From Eledone cirrhosa (taxonomy: Eukaryota): a stretch of 64,000 nt of DNA. The stretch lies in assembly GCA_964016885.1 (NCBI GenBank), contig OZ024740.1, forward strand, positions 74,772,001 to 74,836,000, read 5' to 3'. Position 1 is the stretch's first letter, and the number at the start of each line of letters is the position of its first letter. Below, piece by piece: positions 10,119 to 10,680 of this stretch. The notes beneath the pieces are model-generated. The model did no database searches, had not been told where the DNA came from, and saw only the letters and a program-made list of their open reading frames with translations. Position numbers and translations under genes: made by a program.

Positions 10119-10680
10119 TTGTTTACAAACACACCGAGCATTATAATAAATGTTCGGTGAATTCATACGTGCATATATATATGTGTGCATGTGTGTGTAT
10201 ATATATATACATACTACTGTATGTCTGTATACATATATGTATGTACGTGTACATACTTATATTTAAGTAACAGCCGTACTAAGAGTGGGAAATGAAATTT
10301 CGTTTCATTTTTTCCGTTTATCGTTTTCGGTGCACCCGGCCGATTTACCCACTCGATATGCAAATTGGGCTACTCAGCCGTTAATATGCATAAGGTAAGT
10401 ATATACGTTCAACAATCTGGCAGGAAGGTATACGTTGCTGACGATAGCTAATAAGCTTGAAACTAGTACAACGTTACTTTTTCAGTGTTGAACAAACGAG
10501 AAACGATGGTTGCTGGACACTATGGTTTAATACGGGATGTTTGTTTACAAACACACCGAGCATTATAATAAATGTTTGGTGAATTCATACGTGCATATAT
10601 ATATATGTGTGTATATATATATACATACTACTGTACGTCTGTATACATATATGTATGTACGTGTACATACTTATATATAT
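10119..10680 (+). mobile_element. Hammerhead-bearing repeat with ~140-bp direct repeats (Penelope pLTR or retrozyme-like)
   Basis: 10119-10262 recurs at 10541-10680 (period ~422 bp); partial copies at ~23270-23620, ~40247-40600 and ~58109-58460. Confidence 0.65.
10432..10474 (+). ncRNA. Minimal type I hammerhead ribozyme
   Basis: ACGTTG-CTGACGA-T AGCT AATA AGCT T-GAAA-CTAG-TA-CAACGT: perfect stem I, conserved core, palindromic stem III, GUA cleavage triplet. Confidence 0.85.

What the first reader, a model, noticed from the sequence alone, without database searches (positions are those of the whole stretch)
10119..10680. Hammerhead-bearing ~422-bp repeat family, retrozyme-like
Seen: a textbook minimal hammerhead at 10432-10474 (CUGACGA, GAAA, palindromic CUAG stem III, GUA) sits between direct repeats with no recognisable ORF. 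Three more copies sit in microsatellites; the one at 58212 keeps both stems paired through G-U changes. Known: minimal, dimer-acting hammerheads occur in Penelope pLTRs and animal retrozymes. Inference: a non-coding self-cleaving retroelement that could yield ~420-nt monomer or circular RNAs.
Basis: partly seen in the sequence, partly recalled or inferred. Interest (0 to 1): 0.75.

Follow-up and report, generated by a model that had tools for sequence, protein, structure and literature searches.

The report
Hammerhead retrozyme with Penelope insertion footprint
This is one copy of a protein-free 422-base repeat that carries a hammerhead-ribozyme fold and occurs tens of thousands of times in this animal genome; it was likely pasted into TA microsatellites by the enzyme of a Penelope-type jumping gene, so it is a new member of a known class (animal retrozymes), and its self-cutting and circular RNA are predicted, not tested.

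Summary
Real, and a new member of a known kind. The hammerhead at 10432-10474 lies in a 1.33-unit insertion (10119-10679) of a non-coding 422-bp tandem repeat. At least 28,531 hammerhead copies exist genome-wide (control 4). The fold is a canonical animal type I hammerhead with extended helix I, not the minimal PLE type. One helix I pair takes five paired forms across subfamilies. The three other window copies are one insertion triplicated by a 17-kb segmental duplication. Copies end at two fixed sites 56 nt apart and run into (TA)n; 35 of 38 head-to-head insertions have one short and one long end, the Penelope-like (PLE) 'tail' signature. No sampled copy is the repeat of an RT ORF. Copies run through the cut site (7,518 of 8,498), and the two arms of one insertion share rare variants, which fits one unit-length, possibly circular, template. 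Best reading: a non-LTR retrozyme mobilised in trans by a PLE. Partner, cleavage, expression and circularity are untested. This locus has one hammerhead only. The scan found this same kind of element before, in this genome and others.

The parts
10119..10679 (+). Single-armed, 5'-truncated insertion of the repeat: 1.33 units (unit 10119-10540 plus 10541-10679), ending at the short 3' site
10424..10480 (+). Type I hammerhead: distal helix I 10424-10428/10476-10480 (one pair broken in this copy), UAU loop, helix I 10432-10437/10469-10474, core CUGACGA 10438-10444, U-U mismatch plus 4-bp helix II 10446-10457, GAAA 10459-10462, palindromic ACUAGU; predicted cut after A10468
10258..10265 (+). Short 3' end site (unit position ~140-147, CATACTTATA running into TA); the second copy of this site ends the insertion at ~10679
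10266..10321 (+). 56-nt tail between the short and long end sites, with a hairpin at 10287-10315; long end site at 10321
   Evidence: loose TA ends behind 10321 in contigs of runs X1, X4, X6
10358..10365 (+). ATGCAAAT octamer, kept in five subfamily majority sequences; role unknown and conservation not beyond background
10680..10825 (.). (TA)n run at the 3' end, the likely target
9928..10118 (-). Fragment of another abundant repeat (LINE-like by eye) at the 5' junction; its other copies continue differently, so no empty site or TSD can be read
23270..23627 (+). Sub-unit copy of an older subfamily in a segmental duplication; helix II pair broken
40247..40604 (+). Duplicate of the same insertion
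58110..58467 (+). Duplicate of the same insertion; hammerhead core at 58218

Best explanation
It is a non-coding, high-copy tandem repeat with one hammerhead fold per 422-base unit, likely a non-LTR retrozyme that is copied into (TA)n in trans by the RT-endonuclease of a Penelope-like element. Shown: dispersed copies in arrays (1-9 hammerheads per sampled locus), two fixed 3' end sites 56 nt apart followed by TA, head-to-head two-armed insertions with one short and one long end, read-through of the cut site, no linked ORF in the sample. Inferred steps: (1) arrays with two or more hammerheads are transcribed; (2) two hammerheads pair through the ACUAGU palindrome and cut out a unit-length RNA, which would be ligated to a circle as in coral, mussel and axolotl retrozymes; (3) a PLE endonuclease cuts both strands of (TA)n and its RT starts inside the RNA at the long site on one DNA end and the short site on the other; (4) the RT runs through the sealed or uncut hammerhead for up to several units and the arms are joined by microhomology or truncated. 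The window copy is a single-armed product with one hammerhead.
For: Copy number. Fold: Rfam HH9 full-length; 95.7% of cells paired vs 92.7 +/- 0.6 in shuffles, 0 of 500, and pair 10435:10471 is UG 15, GU 11, AU 4, CG 1, UA 1, unpaired 2 of 34 distinct rows; helix I was not part of the search pattern. Ends: 35 of 38 inverted pairs mixed short/long, binomial p 3e-8; TA follows 48 of 51 clean short ends and 40 of 42 clean long ends. This is the tail described as unique to PLEs and equal to the stretch between two internal RT start sites (PMC11167929; PMC8557442 passages). PLEs with RT and GIY-YIG are abundant here (10,596 first-look candidates; 938-aa ORF with RVT_1 and GIY-YIG) and also end in (TA)n. 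Read-through: 7,518 of 8,498 exact downstream 25-mers keep the 7 bases upstream of the cut (0.885), what ~2% divergence alone gives. One template per insertion: units differ 1.7% within an arm, 2.3% between arms, 4.1% between loci; opposite arms closer than other loci in 12 of 16 loci, p 0.0017, with shared rare variants. Circular monomers fold at z -6.2 to -8.9 with the hammerhead formed (3 of 3 tried).
Against: No cleavage or expression data. In Xenopus only 1 of 9 predicted retrozyme dimers cleaved in vitro (bioRxiv 10.64898/2026.07.22.740005), and in PAc the hammerhead was dispensable and uncut RNA was the main template, so read-through does not prove a circle. Helix II lacks the usual G10.1-C11.1 pair. 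Covariation rests on one pair and a few subfamily-level changes; pairs changed on both sides (2) did not exceed shuffles (343 of 500). Among 33 young units the hammerhead was no more conserved than the rest. Arms were not closer than other loci in 4 of 16 loci, and gene conversion or a homogeneous source array would also give similar arms. Much of the folding energy comes from a self-complementary microsatellite. No partner PLE was identified.
Confidence: 0.8

Rival explanations
1. Same element and same PLE helper, but the template is a linear multi-unit transcript with uncut hammerheads; no circle takes part and the ribozyme is inherited or acts at another step.
For: PAc uses unprocessed RNA and internal RT starts. 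Arrays of 7-9 units exist as possible sources. All my read-through and shared-variant results fit a homogeneous source array too. This is a variant of the best explanation, not exclusive of the classification.
Against: Helix I compensation across subfamilies implies the fold was selected during spread; related retrozymes give abundant circles (PMC7229834). Repeated 5' truncation would shorten arrays unless length is regenerated (inference).
Confidence: 0.35
2. Ordinary pseudo-LTR debris: the unit is the 3' repeat of an autonomous PLE and the copies are its 5'-truncated insertions.
For: PLE-type ends and inversions; PLE pLTRs carry hammerheads (seen here). My PLE sample is small: 80 loci against 10,596 candidates.
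Against: None of 50 GIY-YIG loci or 30 loci of a second PLE family has the unit as its own 3' repeat; the copies found near them are separated by TA runs, other DNA, or joined head-to-head. In 65 candidate 5' flanks no PLE 3' end runs in sense into the unit. Head-to-tail arrays of up to 8 whole units in one arm without ORF (L099) are not what pLTR truncation gives. The sampled PLEs carry different hammerheads.
Confidence: 0.08
3. A satellite or minisatellite that spreads by DNA-level duplication, with a chance or dead hammerhead.
For: Three window copies did arise by segmental duplication; young copies show no extra conservation of the motif.
Against: Dispersed short arrays with unrelated flanks, fixed ends with short/long asymmetry, compensated helix I.
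Confidence: 0.03

Closest known systems
Metazoan non-LTR retrozymes (Cervera and de la Pena 2020, PMC7229834, parts 2-4 of 6 read; Li, Clavereau and Pollet 2026, bioRxiv 10.64898/2026.07.22.740005, parts 1-3 of 5 read, supplements closed)
   Same: Non-coding tandem units of 150-450 bp, GC under 50% (37-39% here), one type I hammerhead per unit, thousands of copies, PLEs in the same genome. The axolotl HHR_Amex2 also has a U-U mismatch at the base of helix II and a 2-bp helix III, and cleaves better as a dimer.
   Different: Different sequence; no TSD readable here; strong (TA)n targeting and the two-armed short/long footprint are not described for retrozymes in the parts I read. Unlike many Xenopus families, no homologous PLE pLTR was found. 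Circular RNA and cleavage are shown there, not here.
EN+ Penelope-like elements, Neptune and Hydra types (PMC8557442, passages only; PMC11167929, parts 1-2 of 4)
   Same: Partial tandems, inverted 5'-truncated arm, tail at one end only, (TA)n insertion bias, two internal start sites.
   Different: No ORF; tail is 56 nt rather than 30-40; hammerhead is of the canonical kind.
[quoted passage not shown]
   Same: Type I core, palindromic helix III region suited to dimer cleavage.
   Different: Those have helix II of 7-8 bp, helix I of 4-5 bp, poorly defined loop 1 and G10.1-C11.1; this one has helix I 6 bp plus internal loop and distal helix, helix II 4 bp, U-U at 10.1-11.1.

Membership tests
Non-LTR retrozyme | Type I hammerhead in each unit | tested here: met
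Non-LTR retrozyme | Short tandem units, two or more with complete hammerheads | tested here: met
   Family: 16 of 60 position-picked loci, spacings 419-538. The window locus itself has one hammerhead and would count as a monomer derivative.
Non-LTR retrozyme | No protein coding, not the repeat of an ORF-bearing element | tested here: met
   Longest stop-free frame 60 aa; no sense PLE 3' end abutting 65 candidate flanks; sample limited
Non-LTR retrozyme | Dispersed, many copies, PLEs in the same genome | tested here: met
Non-LTR retrozyme | Self-cleavage of the transcript | not testable with these tools
   needs in vitro transcription
Non-LTR retrozyme | Expressed as linear and circular unit-length RNA | not testable with these tools
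   No raw RNA reads on offer; a circle junction equals the genomic tandem junction. Only in silico folding.
Non-LTR retrozyme | Target-site duplication, when present | tested here: inconclusive
   No empty site for the window copy; TA flanks hide TSDs
PLE-mobilised element | Tail at one end only; inverted 5' arm; microsatellite target | tested here: met
   35 of 38 inverted pairs; TA after 88 of 93 clean ends
PLE-mobilised element | Sequence shared with a specific autonomous partner | tested here: inconclusive
   Tail resembles ends of two Neptune-type families (p 0.004 and 0.017 of 8 tests, base shuffles, one comparison mis-anchored); no homology by BLAST or nhmmer
Autonomous PLE pLTR | RT-GIY-YIG ORF directly upstream of the repeat | tested here: not met
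   (sample of 90 family loci and 80 PLE loci)
Minimal PLE hammerhead (min-HHR) | Long helix II, short helix I without loop 1, G10.1-C11.1 | tested here: not met
   against PMC4209133

The most novel reading that the evidence does not exclude
A PLE protein dimer cuts both strands of (TA)n and extends both DNA ends at once from two fixed start sites on one small circular ribozyme RNA, and now and then loads a retrozyme RNA on one end and a PLE RNA on the other (mixed arms in L110, L115, L122). Tens of thousands of such insertions would be a genomic record of the unresolved PLE integration step and of how ribozyme circles enter animal genomes.
Probability: 0.3. Interest if true: 0.6.

Novelty: new member of a known kind. 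Interest (0 to 1): 0.36.

Why it matters
The class is known, and a PLE helper has been proposed from co-occurrence and pLTR homology. This family adds a mechanistic footprint: PLE-specific tails and one-short-one-long arms on a protein-free ribozyme repeat, with about 28,500 or more units (roughly 0.4% of the genome by my estimate). It gives a small, young substrate with two mapped start sites for testing how PLE RT integrates and whether it uses circles. The gain is incremental: the scan has already noted the same footprint in other families.

Tried and rejected
RNA evidence: no RNA holder listed; the four runs laid were contigs of unknown kind, so nothing on expression, strand or ends. Whole-window Rfam scan gave only microsatellite-driven miRNA and other chance hits. 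Partner search: 50 GIY-YIG loci and 30 loci of a second PLE family gave no pLTR homologous to the unit. The L065-type PLE lies near 7 of 60 loci but is separated by TA or other DNA where inspected (part was cut from view); it shares only TGCATA(A)GGTAAGTATATA with the unit. The perfect 5' splice site at 10393 was rejected as functional because four other subfamilies read GGAAAGT. The octamer is kept but 8 bases at ~88% background identity prove nothing; the recalled parallel to the newt satellite 2 promoter was not confirmed from the search listing. Empty-site search failed: the left flank is a fragment of another repeat whose copies do not lead to the right flank. The 5'-start histogram is confounded by subfamily breaks and by picking loci on an intact hammerhead; I replaced it with the pattern ratio. 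One search had palindrome false positives and was redone; one search used a mis-registered structure and was redone. The dimer fold could not be scored as a whole; only the 6-bp palindrome duplex (-4.8 kcal/mol). Taxon of the genome was not determined.

Full report
Observation. A (TA)n run follows. The copies at 23378, 40355 and 58218 lie in a ~17-kb tandem segmental duplication of 97-99.7% identity and share both ends, so the window holds two independent insertions.

The fold. A narrow Rfam scan matches Hammerhead_HH9 over the whole model (E 6.6e-6, 28.8 bits, below the gathering score); the whole-window scan did not list it. The motif has helix I of 6 bp, a UAU internal loop and a distal helix, a U-U mismatch and 4-bp helix II, and a 2-bp helix III with a palindromic loop. 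By the description in PMC4209133 (parts 1-2 read) that is the canonical animal type I form, not the minimal pLTR form; the axolotl HHR_Amex2 has the same U-U and works better as a dimer (PMC7229834). On 56 copies (two from the window, 54 from the 60 position-picked loci; 6 loci dropped for lacking the flanking anchors; 34 distinct rows) 95.7% of cells pair against 92.7 +/- 0.6 in shuffles (0 of 500), slid controls reach 34-50%, and pair 10435:10471 occurs as UG 15, GU 11, AU 4, CG 1, UA 1, unpaired 2. Core and helix III were selected by my search pattern and count for nothing; helix I was not. The signal is a few subfamily-level changes, and the number of pairs changed on both sides was not above shuffles. 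Among 33 young units (98% to their majority) the hammerhead is no more conserved than the rest, as expected for copies that decay after insertion.

The family. The 3.0-Gb genome has 9,994 exact matches to a 33-mer (control 0) and 28,531 to a looser pattern (control 4). I examined the 30 best DNA hits and 60 loci taken in order of position along the first 23 Mb of contig C1 from the pattern lists. The 60 hold 1 to 9 hammerheads each; 16 have them in direct tandem, spaced 419-433 or 456-538 bp, and at least five subfamilies appear. No frame exceeds 60 aa. Contigs of two other coded organisms carry the family too (1 contig in X5, 22 in X6), with the same helix I variant.

Insertion footprint. Copies end at two sites: unit position ~147 and ~203, 56 nt apart, with a hairpin between. 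TA repeats follow 48 of 51 clean short ends and 40 of 42 clean long ends; 43 further ends were called by anchor only and not scored for TA. Of 38 head-to-head insertions in the 90 loci, 35 have one short and one long end, 2 long/long, 1 short/short (p 3e-8 against one half; three of the 35 come from one locally duplicated locus). PLE insertions are described as partial tandems with an inverted 5' copy and a tail at one end only (PMC8557442, passages), and in vitro the tail is the stretch between two internal RT start sites, with both DNA strands cut and extended (PMC11167929, parts 1-2). The genome is rich in PLEs: 10,596 first-look GIY-YIG candidates, ORFs up to 938 and 1,096 aa with RT, a CX4CXXC linker of Neptune/Nematis type, their own hammerheads (several with the U3-A8 core) and (TA)n ends.

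Is it a pLTR? Not in my sample. None of 50 GIY-YIG loci or 30 loci of a second PLE family has the unit as its 3' repeat; three GIY-YIG loci hold copies nearby, separated by TA or other DNA. PLE protein hits occur in 27 of the 60 loci, but in 65 candidate 5' flanks (about a dozen of them mis-parsed second arms) no PLE 3' end runs in sense into the unit. Three flanks are PLE 3' parts joined head-to-head with the unit (L110, L115, L122), from three different families. They could be mixed two-armed insertions or later insertions beside PLE fragments in shared TA targets; they do not name a partner. The tail weakly resembles the ends of two Neptune-type families.

Template. Insertions neither end nor begin at the cut site: 7,518 of 8,498 exact copies of the 25-mer after the cut keep the 7 bases before it, a per-base 98.3% that matches family divergence; the two exceptions among the first 30 are point changes. 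Units differ by 1.7% within an arm (86 pairs), 2.3% between opposite arms (49) and 4.1% between loci (5,073); opposite arms are closer than other loci in 12 of 16 loci (p 0.0017), several sharing variants absent elsewhere. Three of three natural monomers fold as circles at z -6.2 to -8.9 with the hammerhead formed, though a microsatellite hairpin gives much of that. A ligated circle explains all this most simply, as proposed for retrozymes (PMC7229834), but an uncut transcript of a homogeneous array fits as well.

Verdict. A non-LTR retrozyme family, likely PLE-mobilised (0.8). The class is in print, including the proposal of PLE origin (bioRxiv 10.64898/2026.07.22.740005, parts 1-3 read; its supplements are closed and may list related families). 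My searches listed no paper on this family or on the short/long two-arm footprint in retrozymes, but the library is partial. Earlier notes of this scan report the same footprint for other families in this and other genomes; my count was made before I saw them, and a sequence look-up found no note on this family. Cleavage, expression, circularity and partner are open.

Noticed in passing
window 22551-40238 and 39478-58854: About 17-kb tandem segmental duplication (97-99.7% identity) with a partial third copy; may be recent or an assembly duplication.
   Followed up: partly
window minus strand, cores at 38992 and 56272: Hammerhead of another family (CUGACGA, long helix II, AUGCGCAU palindrome, 8-bp helix I), like the 3' hammerhead of the PLE family in L143-L170.
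   Followed up: partly
window 23754-23951 (minus; duplicates at 40727 and 58578, related copy at 60323-60519): Another repeat with a hammerhead-like motif of the U3-A8 type (UUGAGAA, GCCC/GGGC stem, GAAA, ACGUACGU palindrome), directly after the TA run of the duplicated copies.
   Followed up: no
window 57517-57978: Two-armed inverted insertion in TA (95-bp inverted ends) with a CUGAGGA...GAAA-ACAUGU hammerhead-like motif on the minus strand at 57760-57805; present in only one of the duplicated segments.
   Followed up: no
L110:3500-4290, L115:3500-4230, L122:5048-5641: PLE 3' part joined head-to-head to a retrozyme arm, each end in TA; possible mixed-template insertions.
   Followed up: partly
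L031-L080: Several Neptune-type PLE families carry minimal hammerheads with a U3-A8 core and ACCGGU palindrome; one family reads GCAA in place of GAAA; one (L092, L115) has a CAGAAGA core without a clear helix III.
   Followed up: partly
L061:3009-5822 (-), L063:1275-4562 (+): Uninterrupted PLE frames of 938 and 1,096 aa, candidates for recently active helpers.
   Followed up: partly
window 9218-9763 (-), 14764-15177 (-), 5896-7311 (+), 16994-17584 (+): Decayed retroelement fragments: integrase core, DUF7041, and two RT pieces.
   Followed up: no
window 11761-11951, 26809-27382, 29211-29307, 35378-35560: A ~180-bp dispersed repeat, tRNA/SINE-like by eye, sometimes in inverted pairs.
   Followed up: no
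window 24300-25038 and 41297-41993; 61139-61277: 93-bp minisatellite (8 copies); a 139-bp near-perfect palindrome.
   Followed up: no
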